From Mobula hypostoma (lineage: Eukaryota): DNA of 64,000 bases. The notes under the pieces were generated by a model. That model ran no database searches. It was given only the letters and a program-made list of their open reading frames with translations, and was not told where the DNA came from. Location: positions 49,850,001 through 49,914,000 of the forward strand of contig NC_086108.1 of NCBI RefSeq assembly GCF_963921235.1, given 5' to 3'. Shown piece by piece: positions 6,256 to 45,064 of this stretch; within the stretch, counting starts at the first letter, position 1, and each line of letters opens with the position of its first letter. Both the position numbers and the translations under genes were made by a program.

Positions 6256-6304
<49 letters not shown>

Positions 6305-12914: not shown

Positions 12915-13185
12915 CAGACAAAAGATGCTGGAAATCAAAGCAAACATAGAAACATAGAAAACAGGTGCAGGAGTAGGCCATTCGGCCCTTCCAGCCTGCA
13001 CCGCCATTCAGTATGATCATGGCTAATCATCCAACTCAGAACCCTGTACCAGCCTTCCCTCCATACCCCCTGATCCCTTTAGCCACAACACACACAAAAT
13101 GCTGGAGGAACTCAGCGGGCCAGGCAGCATCTCTGGAAGAGAGTAAACAGTTGACGTTTGGAGCTGAGACCCTTCATCAGCACCT
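12915..13185 (-). mobile_element. Penelope-like 3' fragment with a CR1 3' end (~12944-13086) nested in it
   Basis: gatgctggaaatcaaagcaa|..|cacacacaaaatgctggaggaactcagc is contiguous in other copies; the insert has acatagaa tail repeats and a CR1 3' UTR. Confidence 0.7.
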
Positions 13186-14624
13186 GAATTCAATGGGAAG
13201 TAAGTTCGTAACTATAATATCAGAAACCAAAGGTTTATAAATACAAATAATGCAGAATTGGGTTGTTAAGAATTGATATTGTAGATAAATAAAAAGATGG
13301 AGTAACCTTTTCCCAAAAGCAGTTCCTCAGAAGATGAAATGATATGTGAGGCCACACTAGCAAACAATGGAAAATGGGTTGTCATAAGGTTTTATCTCCA
13401 CCACGAAGGAAATATGTAATGGTTGTCAGAAGGACGGAGGGCCTTGTGGTAATGGAGCTTTTGATCCACAAACAATATTGCCATGGTGATGCCTTATCAC
13501 CAGCTGCTGCACCCACCAGGAAACATTTAAAATATATTCAAACACTCAAAATAAATTTCAGGCTTATTTTTAATCACCCAGACTGCGGCAGATTTGCAAT
13601 CCATTTCATAATTCAGTTTTTATATATGTAAGTGGTTTATAATTATGTCTTGCCAACATCTGAAAGAAATCAGTCATAGAGCAATTTGTGTATTCTTTAG
13701 GTAGCAAACGTAGATCAGAAAAAGATGAGCACAATGAAAGATTGGACAAAACTTCATTAGAAAGGACCATGCTCGAAATTTAATGCTAGAACCGGCATTC
13801 TGTGCAAAGAGAAGTTAAAACATTTCAAGATCATGTCAGGGCCACAGAGGGATATAAGGTTTTTTAAGCCTGGACAGAGACAGGTACTGTAAAGGCAAAC
13901 ACCAGAGATTCTGGAAATCTGAAATAAAAAAGAAAATGCTGGAAATTTTCAGCAGGTCAGTTAGCATCTGTAGAGAAGCAAACAGGCAACAAGTTGATGA
14001 CCTCTCACCTGAACTGCTAAAAGTTAGAAACAAAATAACAGTTTAATTTCTGTCTTCTCCTCCTTACACCTTCCCCCCTCTTTCTTTCCTTTGTCACCCT
14101 CTTCTAGATGACTCCTGGGCTGTTGTGATATATAAACTGCATGCATTGCACCCACCTCATCTCTGTTTGAAATATCCTATGTAAGCACCAGAAAGCTCAA
14201 GGTACTGGGGAGAAGAATGGCTGTCAATGTCAGTTTTCAGATCAGAAAATGAGATTGCCATCGCTGAAGATTTTATTAAAATCTCCAATACAATCTTACG
14301 CTTAGCATATTCAACTGGACCAACAGGATCTTTTCACATGCTGTCATCATCTCCTGAACTGAACGCCATTTGCATTTGAATAAGGAACACTATTGTGTAG
14401 AAGAGCTGTTGTCAACAGCCCCAGAGGATTGGTAAATGTCTAACTCAGTATCAGGTTCTCTTCAAATTTCTCTTCTCCACAATCAACCAGTAGCTTTAAA
14501 AAATAGCAGCTCCAAATAAAATAATGATTAATAAATGAGAAGAGAAAAGCTGAGCTCTGAAAAGAAATAGCCTTTTTACAAATAATACAAATTTGTAGTA
14601 GTGAATGCCACTTATTCAGTCCAT

Positions 14625-15135
14625 TTCAGAATCTGTATCAGGTTTATTACCACTGACATATGTTGTGAAATCTCTTCTGCAGTAGTACAGTGCAAAACAT
14701 TAAAAACCTTACTCTAAGTTACAATAAAAAATAAAATAAGTAAATAGCGTAAAAAAGGATTAGCGAGGTAGTGTTCATGGATTCATAGACCATTCAGAAA
14801 CCTGATGGCGGAGAGGAAGAAGCTGTTCCTAAACTTTGAGTGCCTGTCCAGATGTTGCCCCTCCTCCCCGATGGTAGTAATGAGAAGAGGGCATGTCCCA
14901 GATGGTGTGGGTCCTTAATAATGGATGCCATCTTTTTGACACACTGCCTATTGAAGATATTCTCACTGGTGGGGAGGCTTGTGCCCGTGATGGAGCTGAC
15001 TGAGTCTACAAACCCCTGCTGCCTCTTTCACCTTCTGTGCTTTGGAGCCTCCATGTCAGGTGGTGATGCAACCAGTCAAAATGCTCTCCATGGAATCTGT
15101 AGAAATTTGCTGGTCTTTGGCGACATGGCAAACCC
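14625..15135 (-). mobile_element. Rex1/Babar-type LINE 3' part
   Basis: Minus strand: MASIIKDPHHLGHALFSLLPSGRR-type C-terminus plus tail; homologous to 30700-30990. Confidence 0.75.
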
Positions 15136-15999
15136 CTTTAGACATAAGGCTTTGTGGCACAAATGAAGAACAGTATAATTTATTGCTGACAGAATTTAAT
15201 ATTTTAATCATTACCAATAGAATCTAAGAATTATTTTATTTAATTCATAGCATGAGCACATTGTTGGCAGATTCAATGCCCTTCCCTAGTACCTTGATAT
15301 TTGTCCCACCAATTGGTACAACTGAGCAACTTGTAAGGCCCCTGAGGGCGAGTCAAAATCTCAGTATTGTTACTGTGGGTCAGGTGTGCATTGAGATCAG
15401 ATAGCGTAGAAAGGAAGATGCCTTCATCAAAGAACATTAACCAAACAGTGGGTTTCTATTGATTTCAGTTGCGAGATCTTAGGGAAAAAAGTTCAAAATC
15501 TTTTTGATATTCCCATATATTTTGACTTATTTTTGGAACTGGAGAGACAGGGAGTAAATGTTTAGCTTTGTGGATCAGATACCAATCAAGAACTTACTCA
15601 GATTGGACCTTCTCACAGGAATGTTGATTCTATACTTCATCTGAATGGCTTTAATTAATAGTGTGCATATCTGCATGTAGCTAGAGAGAGCCAACAACCT
15701 ACTTAAACAGAGGTAGCTTCGCAACTAAGGCTACATCCACACTAGACCGGATATTTTTGAAAACCCCGGTTTCACGTAAAAACAATAGACGTCCACACCA
15801 GGTGTTTTTGAGAATACCTCTGTCCACATTAAAACGGGTATTTGGGCGAATCTCCTCCTGCTGGGCATGCGCAGGACACATCTACAGAATTCACCCACTT
15901 CGACGAGTACACCCAACTCCAACAGTTTGGACCAAGCAACAGGTGATGGCTGCGACATGTTTGGTGTCAAATCTCGCTGTGAAAGACTTAGTGCGTGTT

Positions 16000-16339
16000 T
16001 GTCCAGTTACAGACTAGAAAAACTTAAAAAGGAAATTGCCAAACAACGGACAGCTGTTGGCTCTCACGCAGAAGAACTTAAAACTAAATAAAACAAATAC
16101 TGGAACATATGGAGGCAACCGACAGGGAGTTCATAGACAGTATGACCCAGCTGACGATGAACATTGAAAAACTGACTAACTCTGCTGCAGAGGGATTTGC
16201 AGTGATGAGGAATATGATGGCTCCCCCCCCCCAGTACTTTTCACCGCCACAAAACCAGCCTCACAGCCACTACAATAGCTATACATACGGATACACAGAC
16301 CCCCGGGTGGCCCCACCAACATCTTCCTCATTCCCATAG
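16000..16339 (+). pseudogene. Harbinger accessory (Myb/SANT-type) protein C-terminal remnant
   Basis: KRKLPNNGQLL...MEATDREFIDSMTQLTMNIEKLTNSAAEGFAVMRNMM plus a Pro/Tyr-rich tail; lies inside the TIRs, convergent with the transposase remnant. Confidence 0.55.
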
Positions 16340-16851
16340 AGGGGTCAGCCTGGAAAAATTTCTTACAGCCATAGTCTCTTCACCGATGAAAGGGACAACA
16401 GCTACAGCTAAGTGCAATAAGGTTTGTTACTGGGCAAAAGTGAAATTTGCTGTTACCTCATTTGTTTGACTTGTGCAATAAAACGAGTTACTGGGCAAAA
16501 GTGATTTTATTTTTACCTGAGTAAACGTGAAACTTACAAGTTTCCTTTATTGGCCTTAACATTTTCACGTCTATGCCAAACATAAGCTACTACTTAAAAA
16601 TGACATTTTGGAAGTAGTGACAATTGCATATATTGAATGTTTGCACAAGCAATACATTAATAAAGCACCTTGCTAAATGTATAAAATACGTCTGCATCAG
16701 TGTTATCTTGTATTTCCACACAATGTTACATTAGGCTGTTACACTTCTACTGTCAGAGAGGTACTTGCATAAGTAGGTAAACCACCTTCATACAAGCAAG
16801 GACAGAAAACAGGGCAAAGTGAGTATACTTATTTATTCAGTATTCAGTAAG

Positions 16852-17004
16852 TTATAGGTCAAAGTATTTGGTGAGTACATTTCTAACTCTTCTGGCTTCT
16901 GTCTTGCTGCCATATGTCCTGAAATTGTTAGGTTGTATGGGGGGGGGGGTTGAAATTAACATAGACAATAAAGTAAACAACACACCCATGAAGCTGTCCG
17001 CCAT
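16852..17004 (-). pseudogene. Harbinger transposase N- and C-termini fused, catalytic core deleted
   Basis: MADSFMGVLFTLLSMLIS joined to ..EARRVRNVLTKYF (Harbinger-type A.RVR..L..YF end). Confidence 0.6.
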
Positions 17005-20000
17005 TGTCGTTGTGGTGTTGGAGGTTGCGTTCAAGAAAACAATGGAATACCGCGCTGCCATCACCATCTGTTCTGGCACGTCATGACAGCGTTTTTAAAG
17101 AGAGCCGGTTACACCGGCCATTAGGCGTTTTCAGATTTACTCACTCTGGAGAGCGTTTTTGAAAAGCTCTGTTTTCGGGGTAGGGAAACGCTGTTTCAGT
17201 GTGGACGGAGGGTCAAAACGAAGAGTTCCGGATTTATTCGGTCTAGCGTGGACAAAATGACCTGTCTTCGCAGATATATATTCTGCAGCGATAGTGAGGT
17301 TGGGCCATGTCTGCCTCCACATCAGAGTCTAGGGATACCATGTGAAACCTTGTCAATATTTCAGGTTGAAATGTTGACTGTACCTTTCCCCTGTACGGCC
17401 TGCTGAGTTCCTCCTGCAGTTTGTTCCTCCAGATTCAAACATCTGCAGTCTCTTGTATTTCCTGAGCTGACTCTAATTACTTCCACCAAATAAAGTCAAC
17501 GATTTTAGTACGTACTGGGCTCTGAGCTTTGAACCAGCTTGACAGTATATTTACCCATGCCCAAACACAGACACCACCGGATCCCATAGCAAAGGGTGCA
17601 ACTTGTCATAATTATATCCACGGTAGGCTCGCATCTCCTACTGAAACACCCTGGAGTAGTTTTCAATCACCTGGTGAAGGGTCTCAGTCCCTGGATGAAA
17701 TTAAATTTGCGTCACTCTGACAACTTTGACAGTGTCTAATGCATTCTTGCTTCTCTTAGCAGGTTTGATTTGCATGTTATGCTTAGGAAAAAATAATAAG
17801 AACTGGATTTTGTGATAGGAAAGCCTGCACTTGCAGATTTCTGGTAACAATACACATCACTTTCCTTATCATTGCAAACAGCTTTGACTGAAACCTTTTT
17901 GGTCGGCTCATGGAGAAACACTATGCCCTAATGCAGGTGTAATAATATCAGAAAATGTTGGAAATATTCAGCTGGTCAAGCAGCATCTGCGGAGAAAGTT
18001 CAGGTCTGGTTAATAAATTTTCATGAGAGAATGTTAAAAAAAAATCATGTTTTAAGTTGTAGTGGAGAAGTAAGAATGGGTAAGGAAAAGATGGAATGCC
18101 TCTGGTACGATGGAAAGTGAGTAAGGCTGAGAGAGAGTGGTGAACGCTGGTCAATGGCAGTGTAGGACATGCTTAGAAAGGAATTAGTGTTGCCAGTAAA
18201 GGAGAAGATAATGCAAAAAGAAACACTGCATTTGCTGGAAAATAAAATAAAAGAGAACACTGAAAATACCCAGCAGGCGAGGCGATAGCAGGTTGCTTCT
18301 CTGACAACCTGCCAGCAAGCATTATTTCCCTCTAATGAACACGGATATTTGAAAGCACCAGAAAGGCTGTGCAGGCTCCTGTCACTGGGACTCCTTTATC
18401 TCACAGCGTTCTTCATTTCAACCGCATTGGATGAAATGCAGGAAATGAGCTGCTGATTTCAGTTCAGCTGAGCTCAGGGCACTTTCCCTGCTCCATCGAT
18501 TCCTGCTCTAGCGGAGATCGTTCAATCTTTATATCATTAAAAACCAACACAGAACCAGCTGCAGTATTAGCAATTTTAATCAGTGTGACAAAGAATTTTT
18601 TTTGTAGTGGGGTCTACTTTTGAAAAAAAACCAAGGTCAAATGCCTTCTTGTGAGGTGGCAGCACGTTCAGGGGCCAACCAAAGCTGTTTTTGTCTTTTT
18701 TAAAGACAGTAATTGTCTTGGACTTTTCTTTTGCTATCATAAGACCCCATTGATAATGTAAACTACCTCGAGTTTGCTTCCTTTGTTTATTGGTGAGCTG
18801 ACAGCAGGGGAACGACGTGGCCTCGGTTGTAGTGAGGACTACAACTCAAGCTGCCAGCTTGCCTGCTGCAGCATCCCAGGAGAGGAAGCAGTGTAGGGTG
18901 TGTAACGTGGCACCCATGCTGAGCTGGGGCCGAGCCTCTCCCATCAGTGTTTCCCCGCTGGAAGTCAAGCTTGACTGCATGTGCACGTGCTACATTCATC
19001 CGTAGACTGCTGAGAACCGCTCATTCTTAGCGATAACACCTACGCATCATCAATTTACTTGATGCGTCAGTCAGGGGCTTAGGCTATATGTTTTTTTTGT
19101 GTTGCTGTATGTTTACTGTTATCTTATATGTACTATATGTACCTAGTGCTGTGTCTGAATTTTGGTACTGTGTTTTGCACCTTGGCCCAGAGGAATGCTG
19201 TTTCATTTGGCTGTATTCATGAGTATTCATGTATGGTTGAATGAATCTGAACTTGAAATGTTTATTGTGTTATGTGCAGAACAGTTCCCACTTTCTGGCT
19301 TCCAGCCAAACTTTTCAACAGACCAGTGTCAAACCAAAGTCCTTTATCCATTGTCTCCTACTGACAATCATGCCTCCAAATGCTATTTGCACCAGAACTG
19401 CCCAGCACAGAGTAATCCTTTTAGTTCTTGACCTTCAGAACAAGGTGAGCATTATTGATATCTCTTTCATGCTCTCACTGAATGACCATGGACATGAGCT
19501 TCAGACAGGGGTCAGAATAAAATTTTTAGGGGGTGCTAGAGAATAGAAATTCTTATTGAAAGCAGAAGTGCACAGCCAAAATGAAAACTCTGGTTTATAA
19601 TTCAGCGCTGTTGGTTTCTAACTTGCTCTAATAAAGCAGGGCTGAATGTCAAATGATCTCCTGCCAGACAAGTTTAAATGGTGCAAGCAAACGCAGCCTA
19701 ATATCACTTGACTATCATTGATATTCCGAAAACAACTTCAGAAATTGAAATGTGTCAGTTGTAAAGTGTTATAGATGGTGCCCAATGAGAACATGTTAAA
19801 GGTGCCAATCGTGGCTCAGGGATAACACAAAATCTCAAAGATGCCAGCTTTAGATTACACATTTGAATGCAGACACTCTGAAACAGATGTAAAAGATGGC
19901 TTGGCATAATGTTGAACCTTATCCTGCCTAAAGTGTAGCCTTCACCAACATCACTAAAGAACAATGATTTGGTTATTGTTTTATTACTTTATGTAGGACC

Positions 20001-20379
20001 TTACTGTGAAAACTGGCTGCTACGTTTCCTATGCTAAACAGTGACGACAATTCAAAAGAATTAAATCAGTTGCAAAACACTGAGGTTGTAAGAAGTTTTG
20101 GCTTTTCAGTACAAAGTTGTGTACATGCCCGAGTTATTCAATAGTCTAAATTGCTGATCTTACAGAAAAGGTTTTCAACTGAGATTTCACTTAACATTCG
20201 GCATGAAAATAAATCACCTTTTAAAAGGTTTGTCATTGTTAGGAACATAGTGAAAAAAATTATGGTAGGAAGTAACAGTGAAAGGGAGTATAATTCCAAG
20301 TGTCTTGCAAATAAGATTGAACAAGCTTATTCTCTATAGACCAAAGAGTAAATGGCCAAAAAAGAACAATATAAAATAT

Positions 20380-20810
20380 GCCTTCAACCAGACAGCATGA
20401 AACACTGCTCTAACTTCCGGTAATTTCTCCCCCTTCTCCCTTCTGCCCCCCCCCCACTCTTTCTTTTCTCCTCACCTGCCCATCACTTCTCTCTGGTGTC
20501 CCTCCTCATTCCCTTTTTCCCACACTCCTGTCCTATCAGGTTTCTCCTTCATCAGCCCTTTACCTTTTCCACCTATCACCTCCCAGCTTCTTATTTCATT
20601 TCCCTTCCCCCGCCCACCTACTTTTCCTCTCACCCGGCTTTGCCTATCACTTGCCAGCTTGTACTCCCTCCCCTTCCTCATTCTGGCTCCCCCTCCCCCC
20701 CACTCCTTTCCAGTCCTGATGAAGGGTCTCAACCCGAGATGTCGACTGCTTATTCCCCTCCATAGATTCTGCCTGACCTGCTGAGGTCTTCCATCATTTT
20801 ATATGTTACC
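20380..20810 (+). mobile_element. Penelope-like element 3' end (GIY-YIG C-terminus, pyrimidine-rich UTR, hammerhead motif)
   Basis: LQPDSM...SNFR* then a CT-rich UTR, then cagtcCTGATGAagggtctcaacccGAGAtGTCgactg. Confidence 0.75.
20711..20748 (+). ncRNA. Minimal type I hammerhead ribozyme motif, degenerate (GAAA>GAGA)
   Basis: Stem I cagtc/gactg, core CUGAUGA, stem II GGG/CCC, GUC triplet. Confidence 0.65.
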
Positions 20811-21536
20811 ATAAAATATTAGGGAGTAGCAATACTCTGATTGTTTTTTCAGACCTGGCACATGAGCAGGACTAATGAACATAGCAGGCAGAAAAATATT
20901 TGAGGAAGAAACGAGGATGAAAGTTAAATAACAGTTGATATTACCATTGTGACTTATTCATAATTAATGCTTTTATTGTGATGTACTTATTTTAGGAACT
21001 CAATGAATATTGAGTAGTAGTCAATTGTAAGCAATTCCAAAATTATGCTGTTGGCAGCCTGTGAATAGATGGCTGTAAGATTTTGAACATTTTTAAGGTT
21101 TATTGAAATAATTTTTAAACTGCTTTTTTGCTAGAATTTTGTCCCATCAAACACAATTTGTGTGAAACATGTTACTATAGCCGTTCATATTGTGAAAATA
21201 ATGTTCCCTTTAAAATTATTCAGACTTTCAGAAGCATCTATATCTAACAGTGCAAAGTGAAATGATTACAATTTTTTTCTAAATTACACTTCAGTGACCT
21301 AAATTAGGCGATATTAAACTATGCTCCAGATTTGGTGTTTACAACCTCATTAATGTGCAGGGCAAAGCTCTGCTGTTACTGACTGTTGTGTCAAAGTAAC
21401 CATGGTATTTTAATACACAAATGACATTCCAATGTCTGCAATAATGATCAAAACAATTTATTTAAAATCTGGCATAGAGAAATTATGGATATATCAAACT
21501 TGGCAATCCTAAATAGGTCAGAAGGCAAAAAAAAAA

Positions 21537-21795
21537 TTGGCTCCTCCCACTTTCTCCAGACTGGAGGGGTTGCTATGGGGACCTGCTTGGGCCCCAGCTA
21601 TGCCTGCCTCTTCATTGGCTATATAGAACAGTCCATAGTCAAAGCTCCCTTCCTTTCTAGTCCTGAAGAAGGTTCTCGGCCTGAAACGTGGACTGTTTAT
21701 TCATTTCCATAGATGCTGCCTGACCTGCAGAGTTCCTCCAGCATTTTGTGTGTGTTGCTTTGGATTTCAAGCATCTGCAGAATTTCTTGTGTTTC
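21537..21795 (+). mobile_element. Internally deleted Penelope-like element: RT motif B fused to the hammerhead-bearing 3' end
   Basis: SSHFLQTGGVAMGTCLGPSYACLFIGYIEQ (PLE RT Q..G.AMG....P..A.LF) followed directly by tagtcCTGAAGAaggttctcggcctGAAAcgtggactg. Confidence 0.85.
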
Positions 21796-22382
21796 TCACT
21801 CCTAAGCCCATTTTCAAAGGCTATTTTACTTGGCCATCATTGATTCAATATAAGGTGTGGGGAGATGGGAAACAAAACATTTGTTAAATGTAATAGTTTA
21901 GAAGGATCAAAAAATTAAAGTTCACAGCAACAGCAATCCTAGTGCCTTTGGTGAAAATAGACATGAAGAAACATAACTTCGACTACATTTCTTCTTATTC
22001 CACCTCCTTTCAATATGCCTTCCTCATCACCTTCTCTGCTGCATTTGCTTTTCAAGTTGAGGCTTTCCACACAGGACTTGTGAAATGTCTTCAATGAATG
22101 TGGCTTCTCCTACCATAGTTGATGGAACTTCCAGTTTTACCCTATTGAGACATCCCCTCCCCCACCCTATCTGCAGCTTTAAAAGCATCTTTTTTAAAAA
22201 AATCTTTTTTTCCCCAATTGTGATGAAGGGTCTCTAACCTGAAATGTTGAGTCTACTTCTCTTCCCATGAATGCAGTCTCACCTGATCAGTATTTCCAGC
22301 ATTTTCTGTTTCAGTTTTGGCTCTGCATCACCTGATGATATTCTTAGTATCAACTGCATCAGATGACAATACTTTTACATTG

Positions 22383-22591
22383 TGTTATGTTTTGTAACTG
22401 CAGAAACTAATCAAAAGGAAAGCACAGGAGTTGGGACACTTTGCTTTCTTGTGAGGCGCTCACATACGGCGTGGTGGCGTAATAACCTATGCCATTCACC
22501 TACTTCTTGTATATTCTTGATTAACAATGCTTAATCAAACAATACGTTTACCAAATTACTCAAATATTACTAAAATATTGAATACGCTACA
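22383..22591 (-). mobile_element. Solo Gypsy LTR, same family as 55968-56179
   Basis: Reverse complement starts tgtagcgtattcaatattttagtaatatttgagtaat and ends gttacaaaacataaca, matching both ends of the 55968 LTR. Confidence 0.75.
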
Positions 22592-23239
22592 CAGGGATTC
22601 TTCTAAAGCTTTTCAGGGATGAGACAAATCAGAACAATGATGGAGATTGTGGCAGAAATATGTGATTGCTTAGTTTATGAGGGAGTTGTGAAGGGCAGTT
22701 GAATGAAAGAAAGGTCTCAGGGAGGGGGACGGGAATCAAAGGACCCTAAGGTTCCACAAAGCCTTTCTAACCCAAGGTTTATACACAATGCTACAAATGA
22801 TAAATAATTAATCATATCAGTGGTTGTGTTGCATTAATTTCCAATTAGCGGCAAGCCCATTTTCAGGCTCCATCTGCCTCTGAAACCAGCTGTGCACTGG
22901 AAGTATCTTTCATTAAAACAGACTGGAGGGTAGATTTTCACCTTAGCGTTAATCGGTCGGGCAGATTGTTTATTAATTTGAATGGAATGAAAATCATGAG
23001 CGGTCTATCAGAGATGCATCAATCTGTCCACTAGATTTCATCCAGCTAGTAAGGATGAGACTTGGCCTCATTCTGATTCTGCAGCATCCAAATAACGATG
23101 AATATTACCTGTATATCCATATAGAACTTAATCAGCCAAAATAACAACATAGAATATCCAACTGGAGGATTAATCTTAAAGTAATTACTAAATCTCTCTA
23201 CTCTGAAATGCTGTGGATACTGATTCACACTGTACGGTA

Positions 23240-24130: not shown

Positions 24131-24144
24131 GAGGGATTTTATAG

Positions 24145-29410: not shown

Positions 29411-29484
29411 GCAAATTCAATCAATTTCAAAAAATTAGTTGACACTTGTCAAATAGGTGTAATATGTGATGTTGCAGTCGCTGA

Positions 29485-30990
29485 GAGATAGACCTCTGGC
29501 ATTCTAGATCGATGATCCAGAACTCCGGGTACAACCTACAGAAGGCTATCTTACGAGTGAAAGATAGAGTGAAGTCAGAGACAGAATTAGATGCTTGTCA
29601 GCTCTGGCAGGGTTTGCAGTATATTAACTGCTGCAAGACAAAAATTAAAATCATAAATGGCTATGATGCTTCACTCCCATACGAGCTCAACACCTTTTAC
29701 AGTATGCACGCTTTGAAAGGGAGAATAAAACTACACTTGTGCGAATCCCTGCAGCATCTGGTGAACCTGTGATCTCTGTCTCAGAGGCCGATATGGAACA
29801 CCTTTCAAGAAGGTGAACCCTTGTAAAGCATTAGGCCCTGATGGTGTACCTTGTAGGGCACTGAAAACCTGTGCAACCAATTGGCTGGAATGTTAAAGGA
29901 CTTCTTCAGTCTCTCATGACTGCAGTCGGAGGTTCCCACCTGCTTCAAAGGTGCACCAGTCATACTGGTACCCAAGACCAGCAGGGTGGGGCAGCTGCCT
30001 CAAAGACTATTGTCAAGTTGAACTCATATCTGTGATGAAGAAACTTTGGGAGATTGATTGTGGCTATAATTTATCCTGTGTAAGAACATGGATGCAATGC
30101 AATTTGCCTACTGCTGCAATAGGTTTGTAGCAGATGCAACCTCACAGGCTCTTCATTCAGCCTTGGACTGCCTGACCAGCAGCAATAACTACATCAGGCT
30201 GCTCTTTATTGATTACAGCTCAGCATTCAACACCATCATCCACTCAGTACTAACCAACAAGCTTCAAAACCTCCCTCAGCTACTGGATCCTTAACTTTCT
30301 CACTGGGAAGCCACCATTAGTGTGGATCAGAAATAACATTTTCCCCTCGCTGACAACCACACCGCACCTCAAGGAGGCATACAAGAGTGAGACAGATTGG
30401 CTGGCTGAGAGGTGTTGCAACAACAATTTTGTACTCAGCTTCAGTAAGATCAAGGAACTGATCGTGGACTTTCAAAGGGAACACACACCAGTTCTCATTG
30501 AAGGATCAGCAGTAGAAAGGTTGAGCAGATACAAGTTCCTGGGCATCAACATCTCTGAAGATCTATACTGGCCCCAACATATTGATGCAATCACAAAGAA
30601 GGCATGCCAGCGACTATATTTCATTAGGATCACAGGAAGATTGGGTATGTCACCACAGACTCAAGCGAATTTCTGCAGATGTACTGTGGAGAGTATTCAA
30701 ACAGGTTGCATCACTGTCTGGTATGGAGTGGTCACTGCACAGGATCGGAAAACCTGCAGAGGGCTGTAAACTCAGCCAGCTCCATCATGGGCACCAGCCT
30801 CCACACCATCGTGGACTTATCTTCAAAAGGCAATGCCTCAATAATGCAGCAGCCATCATTAAGGACCCCACCAACCAAGACATGCCCTCTTCTTATTACT
30901 ACCTCCAGAGGGAAGGCAGAGGAGCCCGAGGACACACACTCAACAGATTAGGAATAGCTTTTTCCCCTCCACCATCAGATTTCTGAACAG
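29485..30990 (+). mobile_element. Rex1/Babar-type LINE, decayed RT with the FADD region deleted
   Basis: QLWQGLQ, ALGPDGVP.RALKTCA, MQFAY..NR, YIRLLFIDYSSAFNTII, KELIVDF, YKFLGINISEDL. Confidence 0.88.
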
Positions 30991-34448: not shown

Positions 34449-35640
34449 CAAAGTTCAAAGTAAATTCATTATCAAAATGCATATATGTCACCATATACAA
34501 CCCTGAGATTAATTTTCTTGCAGGCATACTCAATAAATCCATAAAAGAACAATAATCATAATAAAATCAATGAAAGATTGCACCAACTGGGCATTCAAAC
34601 AGTGTGCAAAAAACAAAAAAAACTGTGCAAATGCAAAAAGAAAGAAATAATAATTATCAATAAATAACAATAAATATCGACAACATGAGATGAAGAGTCA
34701 TTGAAAGTGAGTCCTTAAGTTGTGGAAACATTTCATTGATGGGACAAAGGAAGTTGCATGAAATTATCCCCTTTGGTTCAAGAGCCTGATGGGTAGTAAC
34801 TGTTCTTGAACTTGGTGGTGAAAGTCCTGAGGCTCCTGTACCTACTTCCTGATGGCAACAGCAAGAAGAGAGCATGACCTGGGTGGTGGGGGTCCCTGAT
34901 GATGGATGCTTCTTTCCTGTGACAGCACTCCATATGTGCTCCATGGCAGGGAGTGCTTTAGTGTGATTGACTGAGCTGTATCCACTATATTTTGTAGGAT
35001 TTTTCATTCAAGGGCATTAGTATTTCCAAACCTGTCTGTGATGCAGCCAGTTAATATACTCTCCACTACACTTCTTGTCAAAGTTCTAGATGTCATGCTG
35101 AATCTTCACAAACTCCTAAGGAAGTGTTGATGCTGCCGTGCTTTCTCGTAATTGCTGGGTCCAGGAAGAGGTCCTCTGAAATGACAACACCAAGGAATTT
35201 CAAGTTGATGACCTTCTCCACCTCTAATGCTCTGAAGAGGACTGGCTCAGGGACCTCTGGTTTCCTCCTCCTGAAGCTAATATTCAGCTCCTTTGTCTTG
35301 CTGACGTTGAGTAAAACATTTTTGTTGTAGCACCGCTCAGCCAGATTTCAATCTCCCTCCTATATGCTGATTCATCACCACCTTTGGTTCGGTCTATGAC
35401 AGTAGTGTTGTCAGCAAACCTGAATATGGCATTGAAGCAGTGTTTAACCTCACAGTCATAATTGTAAAAGTAAGCAGAGCAGGAGGCTAAGCACACAGTC
35501 TCGTGGCGCACCTTTGCTGAAGGAGATTGCGGAGGAGATGCTGCTGCCAATCTGAAATGACTGGTTCTTGAAGTGAGGAAATCAAGGATCCAATTGCACA
35601 AGGAGGTGTTGAGGCCAAATTCTTGAAGCTTATTGATTAG
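34449..35640 (-). mobile_element. Rex1/Babar-type LINE RT to 3' tail
   Basis: CNWILDFLTSR, IFRFADNTTVI..GGDESAYRREIE; caaagtt tail repeats. Confidence 0.85.
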
Positions 35641-36159
35641 CCATCACCCCAGCTGAAATCAGCCACCTCCAGTTCTGAACCAAATTATATCAAACTCTGG
35701 CTAATGCATTTGACAGGTGACTCAGCAGGATATCTATGTGCCTAAGTTTCAGTTAAAACCGATATGTGAGCAACTTGTTGCAAGAGATAATAATCACAAC
35801 CACACATCTTTCCAGCAATACATACAAAAAATGAATAAATATAATCAGAGATGTACTAAATTGATACCCCATGAGAAGCAGAGATAGTTTTGCGTTAGAC
35901 CTCAGCACTAAAATTCTACCGTGCACAAGGCCCAGGGAGCTCTGTACTACAGGGCCACCCTTGCACAGAACACCGTGTACAGAGGACTTTCCTTTGTGAA
36001 CAGTGGAAATCATAGGGGTGGAGATACCAGGATAGTTGAAAGGAAAAAATTTAATGTGCTTCATAAAGGTTTTGTCATTGGCCCCATTAAATCTATGCAG
36101 CTAGTTAAGGAATAACACTTAACTTCAGATCCTCCAGTGCCTAAATAACACCAAATGCT

Positions 36160-36690
36160 GATGGTGTATCTTGCTGTGGTAACTGCTCTGCTTGTGACTG
36201 CAAGCAACTTCAGAAAGTTGTGGACACAGCTCAGCACATCATGAAAAGCTGCCTCCCCTCCATGGACTCTGTCTATACTTCTCACTGCCTTGGTAAAGCA
36301 GCCAGAATAATCAAATACTCCATTCACCCTGGTCATTCTCCTTTCTACACCTTTCCATTGGGAAGAAGGTGCAAAAGCCTGAAAACACATATCACCAAGT
36401 TCAAAAATGGCTTCTTCCCCACTGTCATAAGATTATTGAATTCTTTCCTAGTACGGTACATTGGACTCTTAACTTCACAATCTACCTCATTACGTTCTTG
36501 CACCTTATTGCCCACCTGCACTATACATTCTCTGCAGCAGTCACACTTTATTCTGCACTCTTATTCTTTTACCTTGTACTACGTTGATACATTGCTGTAA
36601 TGATTTCAACTGCACAAACAGCGTGCAAGATAATGTTTTTCATAGTGCCTTGGTACATGTGACAATAATAAGCCAATTCCAGTTCCAATA
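36160..36690 (+). mobile_element. Rex1-type LINE 3' end
   Basis: KAARIIK...HPGHSPFYTFPLGRR..SLKT..TKFKNGFFPTVIRLLN; tail gtgacaataataagccaattccagttcca. Confidence 0.8.
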
Positions 36691-37204
36691 TTCACAATCT
36701 CATCAGTTAAAACGTTGCTAAAGTCAGTATGGAATAGATCTTTAATACACTCTCTTACTACAATGAAGGACCAAAAAGCCAAAGTAGAGCAGCATTAACG
36801 CCTGATCCACTGTCAACAGCTCCATCCATCCCCTCATCCAACATGACAAATGTGAATTAGTGCCAGTTGCCTGAGGGCCTCCTAGTTCCTAGATCCTCAG
36901 AAATGAAGCACAAAGCTTTGGTTGAATGCGCAATTTTAAAAAAGAGCTCAAAGAAATAGCTTGGACAAACAACTGTGAGGCATTGAATGTTGGACTGAGG
37001 AATCTTTCAAAATCTTCACATCTTTAAGTCTTAGGAATTTCACTGCAAGGTAGTACCCAGACAATTTCCTAGGAGCAGGTTCACACAGACTCAAAGTGTG
37101 CTCTAACAGCAGACACCAAGAGAAAGTCGTTTTAGAAAAGAAAAATAGGTTTCAAAACTGCAGTTAATAATTCTCCAACAAACCTTATCCATCCTAGCAG
37201 CTAG

Positions 37205-37535
37205 TTTTTAAAAAAATCATAGAGTTCACTAGGGAAACAAATCTGTGCCTTCTGCTGTTGAAAGGGGCAAGACCATCTGGTACATGGAACACCAGCACCT
37301 GTGGGTTCAGCCCAACTTGAAAATCATCCTGACTTGGGGTAATTTATACTCTTTCATTGTTTCTGGGTCTATCTCCAGGAACTCCCTGTCCACCAGCCCC
37401 GTTGGTGTACTTCCACCAGAAGGAATGCAGCAGTTCAAGGCGCAGCCTCTCCACCACTTTCTCAAAGGCAATTAGAGACGAGCAATAAATATTGGCTCTC
37501 CTGCTGACACCCACATCCTGTTCATAAATAAAACA
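37205..37535 (+). mobile_element. LINE 3' end (CR1/L2-like tail)
   Basis: cagcagttcaaggcgcagcctctccaccactttctcaaaggcaattag..caataaat..cccacatcc..ataaataaaa. Confidence 0.55.
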
Positions 37536-37544
37536 CAAACTCAC

Positions 37545-38600
37545 TGAAAATTTACAACACGGAACAGGCCATTCAGCCCATCATACCTGTATCAATCGTA
37601 AAATAAAACTACCCAGTCTAAACCCATTTCCTGTCAGTTTAGGCTACACATGGCTCTTTAAGTGCACATCAAAAGATTTTTTTAAAAATATGACGAGAGT
37701 ACCTGACCACTATTGCTTTCCTCATTGCCATTCTAATCCTTTAACAATTACCTAAATCTGTTCCCCCCGCCCCCGGGGTCTGTGACCACTCTGCTAAAAA
37801 AAAAAGCAGGTCCTTCCTAATTAGTCTACCTTGACCTTTCATAATGTAATATGCTGCAATTAAGATTTCAGCTTTCACTGTGCCAGAAAAAACAACCACA
37901 GCTTATCCAGTCTGTCCTCATAGCAGCAAATTTCCAGTTTAGGTAACATATTTGCAAATTGCCATTACACCATCTCCGGAACATCACATTTTTATGTAAT
38001 GTGGTGACCAGAGCTGTACACAAAATACAAACTGCGACCTAACTAGTGTTCTACACAGTTCTAGTATAACCTCCCTGTCCTTATCTCCTTTGCCTTAGCT
38101 AATAGCGTTCATATTTAATCATGTTATTGGCTGTTCTGCTCTGGGAGCAGGCATTCTGAAGCCCTCTGTTCCTCCATGCCATTCAATATTCCTCCAGTTA
38201 TTGTTTGTCTAGTCTTTTGCTTTGTTGCATTTTGCCAAATGCATTACCTCACACGGCTCTAGACTGAGTTCAGCTCGTCACTTTTTGTTGATGAGACCAG
38301 CCTCTGTGTCTCTGGTTAATCCATGGGTTTCTAAATGACGCAAATACCATCCCTCAAAAATTGATTCCATTAAGTTTCCCTTTACTGGAGTTCAACTAAC
38401 TGACTTATACTTACCCCTTCTTTTTCTTGCTTCATTCCTTTGCCTCATTTTAAACAATACTAGCAATCCCTCAATCTTCTGGCACAACTCCATTATACAA
38501 GGATGATTAAAAAAAAACACAATCTGAGCCTCTGCAATTTCCTATGGCGCTTTTTGATAGGCATGAGTTATATTTTATCTGGGCCTGCCTGATTATTAAT
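37545..38600 (-). mobile_element. Old CR1 3' region
   Basis: acaacacggaacaggccattcagcccatc 3' end; gtggtgaccagagctgtacaca and ccaaatgcattacctcacac match CR1 RT C-terminal segments. Confidence 0.6.
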
Positions 38601-39599
38601 TTTCAAAGATCCTAACCGAAATAGGGAAGAAGAAATCCTGTCTTGGTAGGACCTTGCAAGGTTACTCACGAAACAGAATTGGCCATCACCACAAGTAAGT
38701 CAGAAAAACCAGTGCCAGGAAAAATTTAACTTGTAAAACAGTAGCAACCATGTGGCCACCAGCCATAAAATATACCCTATCCAAAAGTAAGGTCATCCTA
38801 TTTGACAGGCTAAAGAGGTGATGTATTTCGTGCTGACAGCCAATCAGGAGACCCGCTATACCCCTCCTCCACACCAAATGTGGGAAAATATGCTTTCTTA
38901 AAGAAATGTCAGTGTGCCTTTTGATCTCTATGTTAAAACATGACCTGTATAGTTCCTGACTGCAGCTACCTCTGAATATTTCAGCTGCCATTGTGTTTGT
39001 TGGTGAGTTTTATGGGAAGTGGACTTCAGCTTTAAAGAATGCTCTCTATAGCAGCCACAGGTCAGTAAGATAAAAGTAGGTAAATGTGAGAGAAAACTCA
39101 GTGGGTTTGGAGGGGCGGGGAGAAGCACATTATTCCATATCCAATCCTTGAGATCCCTGGTGTAGATCAAGTCCTACTGTGAAGCACAAGCTCACTGCCC
39201 TGTGCAAACCACAACGAGTATCTGCTATGTCCACCTACAGTGAGTACGGTTAGACTCAGCAATAGTCTGTGAAAAGTGTGCAGCAGAAACGGCTGAGGTG
39301 GCACACTGATACTCAGATCTCCCAGTCAACTTGTTGCAGGGTTTGCTCCTGTTTTTAAAGAGTTCAAAGTGAAGGTTGAAGGTTTTACATTACTTCTCCA
39401 GCATACGTAGGTACACTAGAGATAGCAATGTGTATCATGATCACTTTATTATGTATGAAAAAGCAAATTTTACCTGGAAGTGCACTGTCCAGTTTCATAG
39501 AAGATGGATTTTCAGCAAGAAATCACCACAATTACATTAAAATTGTAGAAAATGGGTTTAATGTGTTCATTGTTCATGAAAGTGGAGCAAGCAAATACA

Positions 39600-41440
39600 A
39601 TTTTTATCCTTGAATACATTCAGTGGAGGGTGGAATTACAAAAATTAGCCTCCATCTTAAATAGTCATCCCCCTATTCTGAAACAATGTCCTCTCATTTG
39701 TGATTCTCTCAGCATCAATCTTGAGAAAACTCTCAGAATCTTATTTGTCTTGTTGGTCACTTCATACTTCTAAGTTCCATTAAGTGTGCACCCAAATTGT
39801 TCAGCATATTTATAAGTCAACTCCTTCATCCAGGAAGGGATTAGTTAACCTTCTCTGAACCGTGTCCAGTGAAAGTACATAAGAAAGCCAGAACTACATG
39901 CAACACACACAAGATGCTGGTGGAACGCAGCAGGCCAGGCAGCATCTTTCGGAAGAGGTACAGTCGACGTTTCGGGTCGAGGGGGTGTGTGTGTGTGTTC
40001 CTTGAATTTCCAGCATCTGCAGATTTTCTTGTGTTTGCCAAAACTACATGCATGTGTTACATCATCCATTCCCTGAACAGTTGTACCAAGATTTCATGTA
40101 TATGCTTAGCCAGAATTCTTCATACAGCAATATTCTGTGGACTTTTTCTATTTGTTCCTTTTATATTCTTCCTACTAAAGTGGATAAATTCACATCACCA
40201 CACTTATATTCCACATATCACAACTGTGCGCACTTGTTTCACCTATTGCCCTTTAACGGACTCTTCACAACTTGCTTTCTTGTCTAGCTTTTGTATCATT
40301 AGTAAATTTGGCAACAATGTACCCAAAACCTTCATTAAATCATGAATACAGGTTGTAAATAGTTGAGTCTTCAACAATAAGACCTTTGGCTTCCCGCTAA
40401 CTCTTGCTTGTATACTAAAAATAACCAGTGTGTCTGAACTCACATCGCTGCAGGTTATCCAAAGCTTTTTCCATGTCAATATATTATACCAAAACATATC
40501 CCCAAGCCACGAGCTCACACTTTGTGCAGCAAACTTTCATATGGCTTTTGGTAACCCAAGCACACATTTACTGGTTTTGCTTTGTCAATGATTCTTTTTC
40601 CTCAAAGAACACTAATAAATCTGTTAAACATTATTTCCCTTTCCTAGAACCACATTATTGGCTTGATTAGCTTGTACTATTCCAAATGTCCTGCCACCAC
40701 TGCCTTAATACTGTAATGGATTCTCACATTTTCTCAATGCTAGAAGTCAGCCAATTGGGCTGACAGTTTCCTGACTGTTGTTTTCCTCTCCTACTCAGTA
40801 GAGCTATGTTATTTATGGCAGTCCAAATCCACTGGACCTTTCCAGCAGTCACTTCACTTGACACCATCGATTGCAGGCTCTCAGGTCCAGTTGTGTTGCT
40901 AGCATCAGTATTGTCAGTGTGCCTAGTATCCTTCCTTTAGTTTTAAGTTACTCCTTCCCTTTTCCACCAAGATTGGAATATTTCAGTGTCTTCTACCATC
41001 ACAACATATACAAAATATCTGCTCCAAGTCTGAAATTTCCCTACTTCCCATTATTAATCACCCAATCTCATCCCAAAGGCCCACATTATCTTCGATATTA
41101 TCTTCTTATACCATTGTAGAATAACTTAATTCTTGTTTTTATATTTCTTCTTCATATTTTCTCATGAACTGCCTTCTTTAGGTCATCATTTACCAATTTC
41201 TAAATGTTCTCTCTCTTCTGCCCTTTGATTAAACTTTGCAACATTAAATGCCCTTTCTTTCAATTTGTTACCATCCTTAACATTATTATTTCAGTAGTTT
41301 ATTAGAAGAATCTCCTTCCTCTTTGAACTTTATTTCTCTGTGGAATGTATCTTTGTTCAGAGTTATGTAAATCTCTTGAAATGTCTCCAACTGTTTACCT
41401 TTGAGTGTAACTATTAATCCCAGTCTGCTTTCAACAGTCC
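39600..41440 (-). mobile_element. Old CR1 ORF2 fragment hosting a Penelope-like insertion
   Basis: tttgtatcattagtaaatttggcaac (reverse complement encodes VAKFTNDTK); ccaaagcttttt (DF.KA region). Confidence 0.65.
39903..40036. mobile_element. Short inverted Penelope-like insertion with 16-bp TSD
   Basis: gccagaactacatgca (39887-39902) / gccaaaactacatgca (40037-40052); antisense 3' segment joined to a sense tail. Confidence 0.85.
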
Positions 41441-41724
41441 AATTGACTCAGTCGTGTAAGGAATATAGAGAGACACAGACCAGCCAAAATGACAAGCTTT
41501 GTTCAGATATTAGAGGGTCAACAGGCAACACAAAAAAATCCTCCAGCATTATAAGATGCAATTAAGACAAAATCCTCTGGTCACAGAATAGCAACAATCA
41601 CAGCCTACTGTGGTTGCTTGGTGATACCTTGATCCCTGTACATAACAGCAATCCTGTTCTTAATGATGTACTCATTCAGGTTTTTGTGTTTTGAAAGGAA
41701 TTGATAATATATATATTTTTTAAT

Positions 41725-41940
41725 TGAGATACAGTGTGGAATAGGCTCTTCTGGACCTTTGAGTCACGCCAACCAGCAAACACCTGATTTAATACCAGGC
41801 TAATCACAGGACTATACAATAACCAACTAACCTACCAACCGTTATGTCTTTGGACTGTGGGAGGAAACTGGAGCACCCAGGGAAACCCATGCAGTCACGG
41901 GGAAAAGGTACAAACTCCTTACAAGCAGTGGTGGGATCAG
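41725..41940 (-). mobile_element. V-SINE-like element
   Basis: tctttggactgtgggaggaaactggagcacccagggaaacccatgcagtcacgggga. Confidence 0.7.
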
Positions 41941-42365
41941 CAGCTAAAAGATTGCCTCAAGACATTTCAAATAGTTCAATTTAATATCAGAGGATGTATA
42001 CAGTGTGCGACCTGAATACCTACCTGGATTTTTTTTGGCGCCAGCATGTGTGCTGTTAATTGTGATTTATGAGAAAAAGCAGGGAATAAAATAATTACGA
42101 TTTATATTTAACCACCAGCTTACAAATCTTGTTTCCATTACTTGCATTCAAAATTAATACAGCAGAGCATTTTTACTAAACTTATAGCATCACACCATAA
42201 GATATTTAAAGTCTTACTCTCTTCCCCAACCTCACAAACTTATTTGCTTCATCTGAAATTCTCGGAAAATACTGAAAAAAAATTAACAGACTCAATTTAT
42301 GTCATATTGCCCAAATCATCTCCTTGAGGAAAAAATATTTTTAAAATCATTTAAGTTATCTGTCA

Positions 42366-42566
42366 CCAAAGTTGCTGATGAACGCAGCAGGCCAGGCAGC
42401 ATCTCTAGGAAGAGGTACAGTTGACGTTTCAGGCCGAGACCCTTCGTCAGGACTAGTCCAAAACGTTGACTGTACCTCTTCCTAGAGATGCTGCCTGGCC
42501 TGCTGAGTTCACCAGCAACTTTGATGTGTGTTGCTTGAATTTCCAGCATCTGCAGAATTCCTGTTG
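42366..42566. mobile_element. Palindromic Penelope-like insertion with perfect 16-bp TSD
   Basis: tttaagttatctgtca at 42350-42365 and 42567-42582; arms ~42367-42430 and ~42461-42523 are near-perfect inverted repeats. Confidence 0.92.
42418..42455 (-). ncRNA. Minimal type I hammerhead ribozyme motif with intact core
   Basis: Minus strand tagtc-CTGACGA-agg-gtctcgg-cct-GAAA-c-GTC-aactg; one mismatch in stem I. Confidence 0.7.
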
Positions 42567-42714
42567 TTTAAGTTATCTGTCATGTGTTTTGTTAAATGCA
42601 ATTACCTGTATTCCAGTTAGTAATTCTTCAACATTTGGAACTATCTGGAAGTTTCAGTTAGATACTAAGTGGTCATGGTATAGCTTACTGTTCCTTAGGA
42701 AGACCATATTGAGG

Positions 42715-43120
42715 GGAAATTTGAGCATAACAAAGCCAAAGACCAGCAGTTGGAAGAGCAGTGCCAGAGACAGGGACGGAGGGCACGATGTGAGCCTTTA
42801 GAGGTTTTGCTGGTTGCTTGCCGTGCAGAACTTATTCTCTCCTTGGCATTACGGGGTAGGGCGGGTAGGATGCTGCAAAGAAAAGCACTACCAGGACCGT
42901 CATTGAGCCTGCTGAGAAAGCCTCCAAATGGTTATGGGTCAGGAGGTGTGACCTGTGGACCAAGCTGCTGGGACATAAGCCAGGGCCTGATCAACCCTGG
43001 CTGGGCCCCCTGGGTGAGGGTGCCTGATGTTGAAAGACCCAAAACACCCGATGCCCCCAGGTTACATCACCTGGGATGATGTGTCCCAACGCATCCTAGG
43101 ATGCATCCCAGCATCAAGTG
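42715..43120 (+). mobile_element. Hero/R4-type non-LTR retrotransposon 3' end (restriction-like endonuclease C-terminus plus 3' UTR)
   Basis: KAKDQQLEEQCQRQGRRARCEPLE/GFAG....RTYSLLGITG/AEKASKWLWVRR across frameshifts. Confidence 0.75.
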
Positions 43121-45064
43121 ATTACTTTGTAGAATCCAAACACTGCAGTTTCAAGTTGAAGACTGACACGTTGTTTTAATCATTCCTAGTGGAAATTATT
43201 TTTATGAATCCATAAAGCTTGAAATGGTTGACACGGAATCTGTACAAAGGAGTGTTCTATGTCTAATGCACTTTTCCAAGCATATACCTTAAAGATACGT
43301 AGCAATCAGAAAAAGCGAAAGGTGAATAGGAAAAACAGAAATGAAATAACCAACTGTTCATAGGTAGTGGCCCAGACTGAGGGGGAGGGGGATCTTTTCA
43401 ATATGTCCCTTCCCTTCCCTTCCCAAGTCCTTTGAGGAATACAATTTTATTTTAAAGATTGAGAACATAAGAGTTTAATATGTCTATAAAACATCTTTCA
43501 ATCCAAGATCTGATCCAGTAGTGAGGTGAGTGTAGCAAGTGTAAGTTTTACTCTGTTAGTATTAGATGTACTGTTCTCCATTTCCTTTAATTACACAATT
43601 CATCTGATTACTGATATCGTGTTATTATTAAAAGTGTGCATATCCTTCTCTTTCCAACAAAAGAAAAAAATTACTTATTTATTTTACTTATATCTGTCAG
43701 TAATCCTTCAGTTCACTATCAGTCATTGGATCTCACTACCTTTCAGTACATTTGTCACTAACATACAAAAGAATTCACCACAGAAAGCGCTCCAAGACAA
43801 TCATGGAGAAAATGGCAATGATGTGATTTAGATAGTGCCCTGACGAAGGGTCTTGGTCCAAATCATTTTCTGTTCATTTGCTGCCTGACCCACTGAGCTT
43901 CTTCTGCAGGGTCTGTGTGTTGATTTCACTGGGAAACTTTCCTCTCTTAAGAGAGCAGACACTTCTTTTTTCCAACCTATTTATGTTCATGAGTGACATA
44001 CAAACCAGGGACACTTGCTGGTTTTAGTCACTCTACTCTGATATTGAATGTGAAGTTGCTCTTCCAATTGGAAGTTGAAAAGTTCAAAAATATTGAGTTA
44101 CCTTCCTAAGAAGCCAAAATATACTATCTTTGTGCAAATGTGAAATTTCAGCCGAATTTGTATCTATGCCAAATGTGTTCACACATAGCAAAAGGTTTGC
44201 CTTTGGCTCAACCCCCCCCCCCCCCCACCCAGCTTGTCCACCCTGATTACTAAGGGCAAGTGTAAGCAGGGCAAGGTGCTGTTCTTCTCAAATAAACACA
44301 AAATGTATGTTCACTGGGAGATTATAGAAGAGTATGTATGGCTCACTCTGTGACATTAAGGATACGTACATGCCTCCAAAGTCAGCAAATTTAAAGTCCT
44401 CTGCATAGCATTGCCTTTAAAGCAGATACAGTAAGCAGAGATTAATCATTAACTGCATGGCTTCCTATTACAGAACTGTCAGCTAAACAGCAGGATAACT
44501 GTGTGAAGCACTTTGCATTTTTTTAAACTTTTAGTTTGGATTAAAGAAAATGTTGTGAAGGAGATAATTGTTGTAATTCAGTGGAATAGCAAAAATGAAA
44601 AACGGTTTGAAAGAGAGAACAAAATCTTGAATAATTTCTTATGCACAGCCGACGTGATGGAGGAACTGCACACAGCTCTGAAAATGGGGCTGGGTTTTTA
44701 GCATTATCTATAGTTTATCCAGGAATGCATACTCATCTTACGCAGCTTGTGATCAACTCCTTTCAAAATAAAAAGCACGAATATCAGAGCATCATTAAAA
44801 AAAAACAACACATTTCCCAAGGAGTGGGTTTTAAATTTGTGATCATACCTTGTCTCAATTTTCAACTGGAATTTTTATGTGGTGAACTGAACCTAACGGC
44901 TTTCATCAAAACCAGTGAGTAGCAGATGTGGTCTCTCTATATCTGAAGATTTTTGAAACCTAATTTAGCCCATGAAACCTGATCATACATGTTCACAATA
45001 TGCACACAAATTAGGAATTTTTCATATTTACAAAGTTAATGAAAGACTCTTTATAAGAACACAA

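What the first reader, a model, noticed from the sequence alone, without database searches (positions are those of the whole stretch)
13148..43870. Dispersed Penelope-like short elements carry a minimal hammerhead ribozyme
Seen: consensus cagtc-CTGA(T/C/A)GA-agggtctcggcc(c/t)-GAAAC-GTC-gactg, i.e. stem I cagtc/gactg, hammerhead core, short stem II, palindromic ACGU stem III and a GUC site. Copies lie at 13148-13183(-), 20711-20748(+), 21658-21695(+), ~22220-22255(+), 42418-42455(-) and ~43838-43865(+), with half-motifs at 39961-39980 and 42457-42472. Each copy has different lesions (GAGA, CAAA, GUG), so the consensus is intact. The same repeat is attached to a PLE RT motif (21540-21635) and a GIY-YIG-type C-terminus (~20380-20425). 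Known: PLEs encode minimal hammerheads thought to cleave as dimers. Inference: a very high-copy ribozyme family in this genome.
Basis: partly seen in the sequence, partly recalled or inferred. Interest (0 to 1): 0.72.

Follow-up and report, generated by a model that had tools for sequence, protein, structure and literature searches.

The report
Penelope retrotransposon ends with minimal hammerheads
These scattered motifs are the cut-short, mutated end pieces of an extremely abundant Penelope-type jumping gene that carries an already described minimal "hammerhead" self-cutting RNA motif, which likely cuts weakly and only in paired or protein-bound copies of the parent element, so the finding is real but ordinary.

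Summary
All six motifs and both half-motifs lie at the stated places. They are not a separate short element. They are 5'-truncated 3' ends (pLTR pieces) of an RT plus GIY-YIG Penelope-like element with a Neptune-type linker, and near-full copies carry the same motif about 300 nt after the stop codon. The genome has 68,462 exact 25-nt cores against 0 in the control, and roughly 0.5-0.6 million remnants by sampling. The motif matches the minimal hammerhead of PLE pLTRs described in PMC4209133. Every window copy has a lesion. Cleavage was not tested. Three details argue for weak or dispensable cutting. Copies show no excess of starts at the cut site. The largest young subfamily lacks the usual G10.1-C11.1 pair (37,833 vs 5,621 copies). 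An A6C-core sublineage amplified to 4,507 matches. Copy starts cluster inside the motif, about 5-fold above upstream, often at fold-back junctions. This scan has noted the same thing in at least 23 genomes. Verdict: new member of a known kind, low interest.

The parts
13085..13183 (-). 5'-truncated pLTR end, beginning at the hammerhead (13148-13183; CAAA lesion, stem I broken) and ending at the short 3' end
   Evidence: E 3e-27
13899..13978 (-).
   Evidence: E 1e-5
17367..17452 (+).
   Evidence: E 2e-8
17949..18000 (-).
   Evidence: E 3e-4
20380..20815 (+). Old PLE 3' end: last codons of the ORF (about 20380-20422), pyrimidine-rich 3' UTR, hammerhead 20711-20748 (GAGA lesion), tail
   Evidence: 60% over 449 nt, E 6e-16
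21537..21636 (+). Fragment of the PLE reverse transcriptase (GVAMG..GPSYA motif), joined almost directly to the pLTR; about 1.4 kb of the parent is missing between them
   Evidence: 81% over 100 nt; tblastn E 9e-15
21644..21795 (+). pLTR end with hammerhead 21658-21695 (GUG at the cut triplet) and the long tail
   Evidence: E 3e-38
22214..22345 (+). Old, diverged relative of the pLTR end; hammerhead about 22220-22255 with C3 lost; 3' limit uncertain
   Evidence: E 4e-8
39887..40051 (.). One inverted-pair insertion: minus-strand copy 39981 to about 39902 beginning inside stem II, plus-strand tail piece 39990-40036, flanked by a 15-nt target duplication with 1 mismatch (39887-39901, 40037-40051; read by eye)
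42350..42582 (.). One inverted-pair insertion: minus-strand copy with core-intact hammerhead 42418-42455 (G1.1 to A) and short 3' end; plus-strand copy from 42457 with half motif and long tail; exact 16-nt target duplication (42350-42365, 42567-42582)
   Evidence: predicted hairpin -129 kcal/mol
43836..43930 (+). Decayed pLTR end; 5' half of the hammerhead at 43838-43865 (CAAA, 3' half deleted)
   Evidence: E 3e-8

Best explanation
The motifs are mutated 3'-end fragments of a very abundant endonuclease-positive, likely Neptune-type Penelope-like retrotransposon whose terminal repeat holds a minimal type I hammerhead that is predicted to cut after GUC only weakly, as a pair or with the element's protein. 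Shown: the parent ORF (RT, C-x4-C-xx-C linker, GIY-YIG), the motif about 300 nt after its stop, partial tandem copies, inverted pairs, two 3' ends and target duplications. Inferred: reverse transcription starts at one of two sites about 65-70 or about 105 nt past the cut site. It often stops or folds back within the hammerhead, which gives the short and inverted insertions. The template is mostly uncut RNA, and each insertion then decays. Two motifs in a tandem transcript would pair ACGU with ACGU to build helix III. The window copies are likely inactive debris.
For: Near-full ORFs of 641-934 aa: 14 of 15 fetched loci have the motif in sense downstream of the ORF; L052 has none there; the L055 one is about 2.7 kb away. 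RVT_1 (E 1e-5) and GIY-YIG (E 9e-4) on L043, both below Pfam cut-offs. Atlas neighbours at 0.98 carry RVT_1, HTH_animal and GIY-YIG. L048 is a partial tandem with a 1.19-kb repeat and two motifs 3.5 kb apart. 34 of 91 young copies have the long tail and 57 do not. 26 of 91 adjoin an inverted copy. These are the PLE hallmarks in PMC8557442 and PMC11167929. In 68 sampled copies, stem I and core columns outside CpGs are 0.83-0.96 conserved, N7 0.46, and the flanks either side 0.44-0.83. PMC4209133: monomeric min-HHR inactive, dimers weakly active. PMC11167929: the anole PLE hammerhead cuts only with protein.
Against: No cleavage assay and no raw RNA reads. The downstream tail is as conserved as the core, and the profile used there was built from motif-bearing copies, so conservation does not single out catalysis. 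No compensatory stem I family was found: 182 U-A versus 66,749 C-G, and the 182 look like double point mutants. The monomer fold is no better than shuffles (z -0.3 to +0.8). In the young subfamily an upstream pyrimidine tract is predicted to sequester the core (stem I probability 0.017). The largest young subfamily lacks G10.1-C11.1, and an A6C sublineage amplified. Clade assignment rests on the linker motif, not on a tree.
Confidence: 0.8

Rival explanations
1. The hammerhead-shaped stretch is kept mainly as a structural cis-element (protein binding, reverse-transcriptase arrest or fold-back site). Self-cleavage has become dispensable or lost in these lineages.
For: No peak of copy starts at the cut: 1,181 transversion-flanked matches there versus 945 and 824 at control positions, and 14 of 30 inspected are point mutants. 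Starts are enriched 5.4-fold at -11 to -40. A6C core in 4,507 matches versus 717 for A6G, with shared flanks in the loci read; A6C cut Mg2+-dependent cleavage about 10,000-fold in one ribozyme in PMC7151607. U11.1 dominates 37,833 to 5,621. Hammerhead mutants did not affect insertion in vitro for the anole PLE.
Against: All core positions and the GUC triplet are intact in the youngest, most successful subfamily. The one core variant seen to amplify, A6C, is a natural variant that keeps some activity. Cut RNA may simply not serve as template.
Confidence: 0.3
2. The short copies and inverted pairs are an independent non-autonomous family (retrozyme- or SINE-like) that is transcribed, self-cleaves and is copied as a unit by the PLE protein.
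For: Short TSD-flanked insertions are common. The preprint 10.64898/2026.07.22.740005 reports hammerhead retrozymes derived from PLE ends, including in one chondrichthyan genome.
Against: 5' starts and inversion junctions differ from copy to copy, as expected of independent truncation. No head-to-tail array of short units occurs in the window. Inverted pairs are predicted to bury the motif in a long hairpin.
Confidence: 0.07
3. Dispersed copies act as single, host-useful ribozymes that cut host transcripts.
For: About 18 core-intact copies per 400 kb would place many inside introns.
Against: No helix III in a monomer. All window copies have lesions, many of them CpG-type. Monomeric min-HHRs were inactive in PMC4209133. 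Forward and reverse counts are equal genome-wide, though no gene model was available to test orientation in introns.
Confidence: 0.03

Closest known systems
Minimal type I hammerheads (min-HHR) in pLTRs of metazoan PLEs, including fish Xena, Poseidon and Neptune (Cervera and De la Pena 2014, PMC4209133)
   Same: CUGANGA core, extra nucleotide before stem II, 4-5 bp stem I, palindromic 15.2-16.2 with no loop III, location in the pLTR, mostly single dispersed truncated copies, opposite-strand pairs.
   Different: Stem II is short (4 bp; the S. mansoni families in the paper have 7-8 bp). The largest subfamily lacks G10.1-C11.1. Copy number (at least 68,462 exact cores) exceeds the 4,000-9,000 given for coelacanth and Xenopus. 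Cartilaginous fish are not named in the parts of the main text read; supplements not seen.
Neptune-clade EN+ Penelope-like elements (Craig et al. 2021, PMC8557442)
   Same: Single ORF with RT, CX2-5CxxC linker and C-terminal GIY-YIG; 5' truncation; partial tandems; inverted 5' copies; optional 30-40 bp tail.
   Different: No tree was built. The linker is shared with Nematis, which the 2026 preprint did not find in its vertebrates.
Poseidon_Ac of the green anole (Frangieh et al. 2024, PMC11167929)
   Same: Hammerhead in the pLTR; two 3' ends downstream of it, matching two internal RT start sites; no sign of RNA or copies ending at the cut.
   Different: Different clade. There the ORF starts inside stem II; here the motif has no in-frame ATG at that place. 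The region at the 3' ends here is GU-rich on the sense strand, versus the AC-rich stem-loop described there.
Non-LTR retrozymes of animals (bioRxiv 10.64898/2026.07.22.740005)
   Same: Type I hammerhead derived from PLE ends; reported in one chondrichthyan genome.
   Different: Retrozymes are head-to-tail tandem units; the window copies are single or inverted with variable starts.

Membership tests
min-HHR of PLE pLTRs | Core CUGANGA, GAAA and UH | tested here: met
   66,749 exact genome matches including stem I, control 0; only 1 of 6 window copies (42418-42455) keeps all three
min-HHR of PLE pLTRs | Stem I of 4-5 bp flanking the core | tested here: met
   AGUC/GACU plus C-G or U-G, 5 bp in 3 of 4 copies modelled; no compensatory change shown
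min-HHR of PLE pLTRs | Palindromic 15.2-16.2 without helix III, allowing a dimer | tested here: met
   ACGU; self-duplex only -1.7 kcal/mol
min-HHR of PLE pLTRs | [quoted passage not shown] | tested here: met
   A in 46 of 48 sampled copies; in U11.1 copies it could instead pair with that U
min-HHR of PLE pLTRs | G10.1-C11.1 pair (described as highly conserved) | tested here: inconclusive
   Met in 5,621 and not met in 37,833 otherwise identical 34-mers; 24 C versus 27 T of 53 sampled copies
min-HHR of PLE pLTRs | Located in the pLTR of a PLE, sense strand | tested here: met
   two motifs bracket the ORF in L048
Hammerhead ribozyme (functional) | Self-cleavage after UH | not testable with these tools
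   Only contig-level runs were listed
Rfam hammerhead families | Match to a curated covariance model | tested here: not met
   No hammerhead family at E up to 1 in the window; minimal forms lack helix III
EN+ Penelope-like element | One ORF with RT and C-terminal GIY-YIG | tested here: met
   (both Pfam hits under gathering cut-off)
EN+ Penelope-like element | Partial tandem or inverted pLTRs, optional tail | tested here: met
Neptune clade | CX2-5CxxC linker before the endonuclease | tested here: met
   C-x4-C-xx-C in L043, L044 and L045; definition
Neptune clade | RT phylogeny | not tested
   No named reference set was at hand
Non-LTR retrozyme | Tandem short units each with a hammerhead | tested here: not met
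   Window copies are single or inverted; the genome was not surveyed for arrays

The most novel reading that the evidence does not exclude
In this PLE radiation the hammerhead fold is mainly a reverse-transcription arrest and fold-back signal that produces the inverted pLTRs and short insertions, and cutting has become dispensable. Subfamilies with a weakened stem II base (U11.1) or an A6C core amplified to thousands to tens of thousands of copies, forming a natural allelic series for asking what PLE hammerheads are for.
Probability: 0.25. Interest if true: 0.5.

Novelty: new member of a known kind. Interest (0 to 1): 0.22.

Why it matters
The role of PLE hammerheads in vivo is open: PMC4209133 found low activity, and PMC11167929 found protein-assisted cutting that is not needed for insertion in vitro. 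A family with about 87,000 young copies matching one tail pattern is a large fossil record of where reverse transcription starts and stops relative to the motif, and it offers natural core variants to assay. The motif, its host element type and its dispersal as truncated copies are all published, and this scan has logged it in at least 23 genomes.

Tried and rejected
Rfam scan: no hammerhead family; the mir-5681 hit at 42409-42481 is the inverted-repeat hairpin, 33 bits against a gathering score of 88, rejected. Monomer folding gave no stability above shuffles. Search for a compensatory stem I family found only apparent double mutants. The search for an A-U stem II version found 112 copies, but the pattern imposed the pairing, so it is not covariation evidence. 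Sequencing runs: no RNA holder listed. Four runs laid were contigs only, which cannot show RNA ends, strand or circles; no conclusion drawn. Automated target-duplication scan gave a convincing result for 1 of 7 window insertions; a second was read by eye. Hypothesis that copies start at the cut site as a fossil of cleavage: not supported. By alignment 0 of 91 start there; by eye up to 3 of 91 do (L158, L170, L152); there is no genome-wide peak. Pfam on the 40-aa RT fragment alone found nothing. Earlier-finding look-ups by sequence and by place were empty. The host species was not determined.
Full report
Observation. The window is G000:C50:49850001-49914000 of a 3.48-Gb genome. All six motifs and both half-motifs are at the stated coordinates. 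The bare pattern is not significant alone (2 hits, 12 of 100 shuffles reach 2). A profile of the repeat end finds 12 pieces in the window and none in the reversed window, three of them new (13899-13978, 17367-17452, 17949-18000). Each listed copy has a lesion; only 42418-42455 keeps the full core, and it has a mismatch next to the cut and sits in a predicted -129 kcal/mol hairpin. Rfam has no hammerhead match.

Parent element. The RT fragment at 21539-21658 drew 21,696 first-look candidates, of which 150 were scored. I fetched 15 with long open frames. They hold ORFs of 641-934 aa; 14 of 15 have the motif in sense downstream, 13 of them about 300-700 nt after the open frame. Pfam gives RVT_1 and GIY-YIG below cut-off, and the Atlas neighbours carry the same domains. 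A C-x4-C-xx-C linker precedes the endonuclease, which PMC8557442 (passages read) gives for Neptune and Nematis. L048 is a partial tandem with two motifs 3.5 kb apart. The window pieces align to this element's 3' end. The two composite insertions at 39887-40051 and 42350-42582 are inverted pairs with 15-16 nt target duplications. The host is probably a shark or ray; this rests on earlier scan notes and on my recall of similar repeats, not on a test.

Copy number. 68,462 exact matches to the 25-nt core pattern, control 0, and 66,749 with stem I and UH. In 40 stretches of 10 kb taken at round coordinates of the larger contigs there were 59 tail hits and 68 repeat-end hits, with 0 in reversed controls, which extrapolates to about 0.5-0.6 million remnants. 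Of 23 core-pattern hits in that sample I read 18 as family members, 1 as an older relative and 4 as chance (control 4), which gives about 150,000 core-intact copies.

Anatomy against the literature. PMC4209133 (text parts 1-2 of 4 read; supplements not seen) defines the min-HHR: no helix III, palindromic 15.2-16.2, an extra base before stem II, conserved G10.1-C11.1, in PLE pLTRs including fish Neptune, mostly single truncated copies, inactive as monomer and weak as dimer. The motif here fits, except that the commonest young 34-mer has U at 11.1 (37,833 versus 5,621). Four other CpGs are intact in both patterns, so this is a subfamily trait and not decay. PMC11167929 (parts 1-2 of 4) shows protein-assisted cutting, no need for it in insertion in vitro, and two internal RT starts that make the optional tail. 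Here 34 of 91 young copies have the long tail and 57 do not. The preprint 10.64898/2026.07.22.740005 (part 1 of 5, passages and Discussion; supplements closed) reports hammerhead retrozymes in one chondrichthyan. PMC6155905 was seen as passages. Searches for a paper on shark or ray PLE hammerheads found none: 1 paper, shark only as the name's origin; 0; 0; 12 listed, not read apart from the preprint. The library lacks most subscription papers and Repbase.

Is the motif under selection? In 68 sampled copies, stem I and core columns outside CpGs are 0.83-0.96 conserved, N7 is 0.46, and the flanks at -14 to -5 and +33 to +38 are 0.44-0.83. Against reading this as selection on catalysis: the tail further down is equally conserved, the profile was built from motif-bearing copies, and no compensatory family was found. 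An A6C core occurs 4,507 times versus 717 for the A6G transition. The 10 loci read share one tail type, so it was inherited from an active master. PMC7151607 (abstract and Results) shows A6C is a natural variant that cuts well in Mn2+ and poorly in Mg2+. Folding predicts the hammerhead's stem I at probability 0.017, 0.26 and 0.68 in three subfamily examples, because an upstream pyrimidine tract competes.

Where copies begin. A tail-only pattern has 87,119 matches. I fetched 80 regions covering the first 90 of the 100 listed rows (first 3.3 Mb of C1; the last 10 rows were left out) and scored 91 copies. Starts relative to the cut: 0 at or after it, 3 at -3 to -10, 27 at -11 to -40, 24 at -41 to -280, and 37 longer. 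By eye the three nearest could begin at the cut. The rate is 1.2% per base inside the motif versus 0.22% upstream (5.4-fold, p 7e-9, though paired copies are not independent), and about 3-fold without inverted copies. 17 of 30 copies starting inside the motif adjoin an inverted copy, versus 9 of 61 others (p 6e-5). Genome-wide there is no peak at the cut: 1,181 versus 945 and 824 at two control positions, with patterns of unequal strictness. Of 30 inspected, 14 were point mutants, 14 were flagged as inverted joints (two of these are a short tandem duplication), and 2 were other. The template therefore appears to be mostly uncut RNA. Whether starts cluster because RT stalls or folds back at the structure, or because transcripts begin there, is not resolved. 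I had planned this test; notes e1-9927094 and e1-9897000 report a similar pattern in other genomes, with a sharper start spot than I see here.

Verdict. A real, very abundant, published kind of element. The window copies are likely inactive debris. New member of a known kind, interest 0.22. The details worth keeping are the U11.1 and A6C subfamilies and the clustering of junctions inside the motif.

Noticed in passing
window 59501-59986 (+): 161-aa open frame that resembles, from recall, a piece of the splicing factor RBM25; possibly a processed pseudogene fragment. No Pfam or PDB match.
   Followed up: partly
window 4387-7641 (+): Broken LINE-type ORF2 spread over several frames, L1/Tx1-like by recall; the 4829-5566 piece had no Pfam match.
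   Followed up: partly
window 9004-9489: Tandem array with a 44-nt offset, about 96% identical units.
   Followed up: no
window 21537-21795: RT fragment joined to the pLTR with about 1.4 kb of the parent missing: an internal deletion or template jump.
   Followed up: partly
L048 1854-6553: Partial-tandem PLE with a 1.19-kb repeat and two hammerheads bracketing a frameshifted ORF; the arrangement that would allow a dimer.
   Followed up: partly
L055 6247, L082, L085, L093: A further subfamily with a different stem II loop (UCCG for CUCG) and different flanks but the same core and stems.
   Followed up: no
window 30254-30986, 34657-35007, 35284-35643, 36145-36600, 54806-55261, 62935-63285: Several fragments of a LINE-type RT family (Rex/Babar-like by recall); 30254-30766 has a weak ALKBH8_N hit, E 3.5e-4.
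   Followed up: no
window 57471-57548: Inverted repeat with a weak mir-15 match (25 bits, gathering score 57); likely chance.
   Followed up: no
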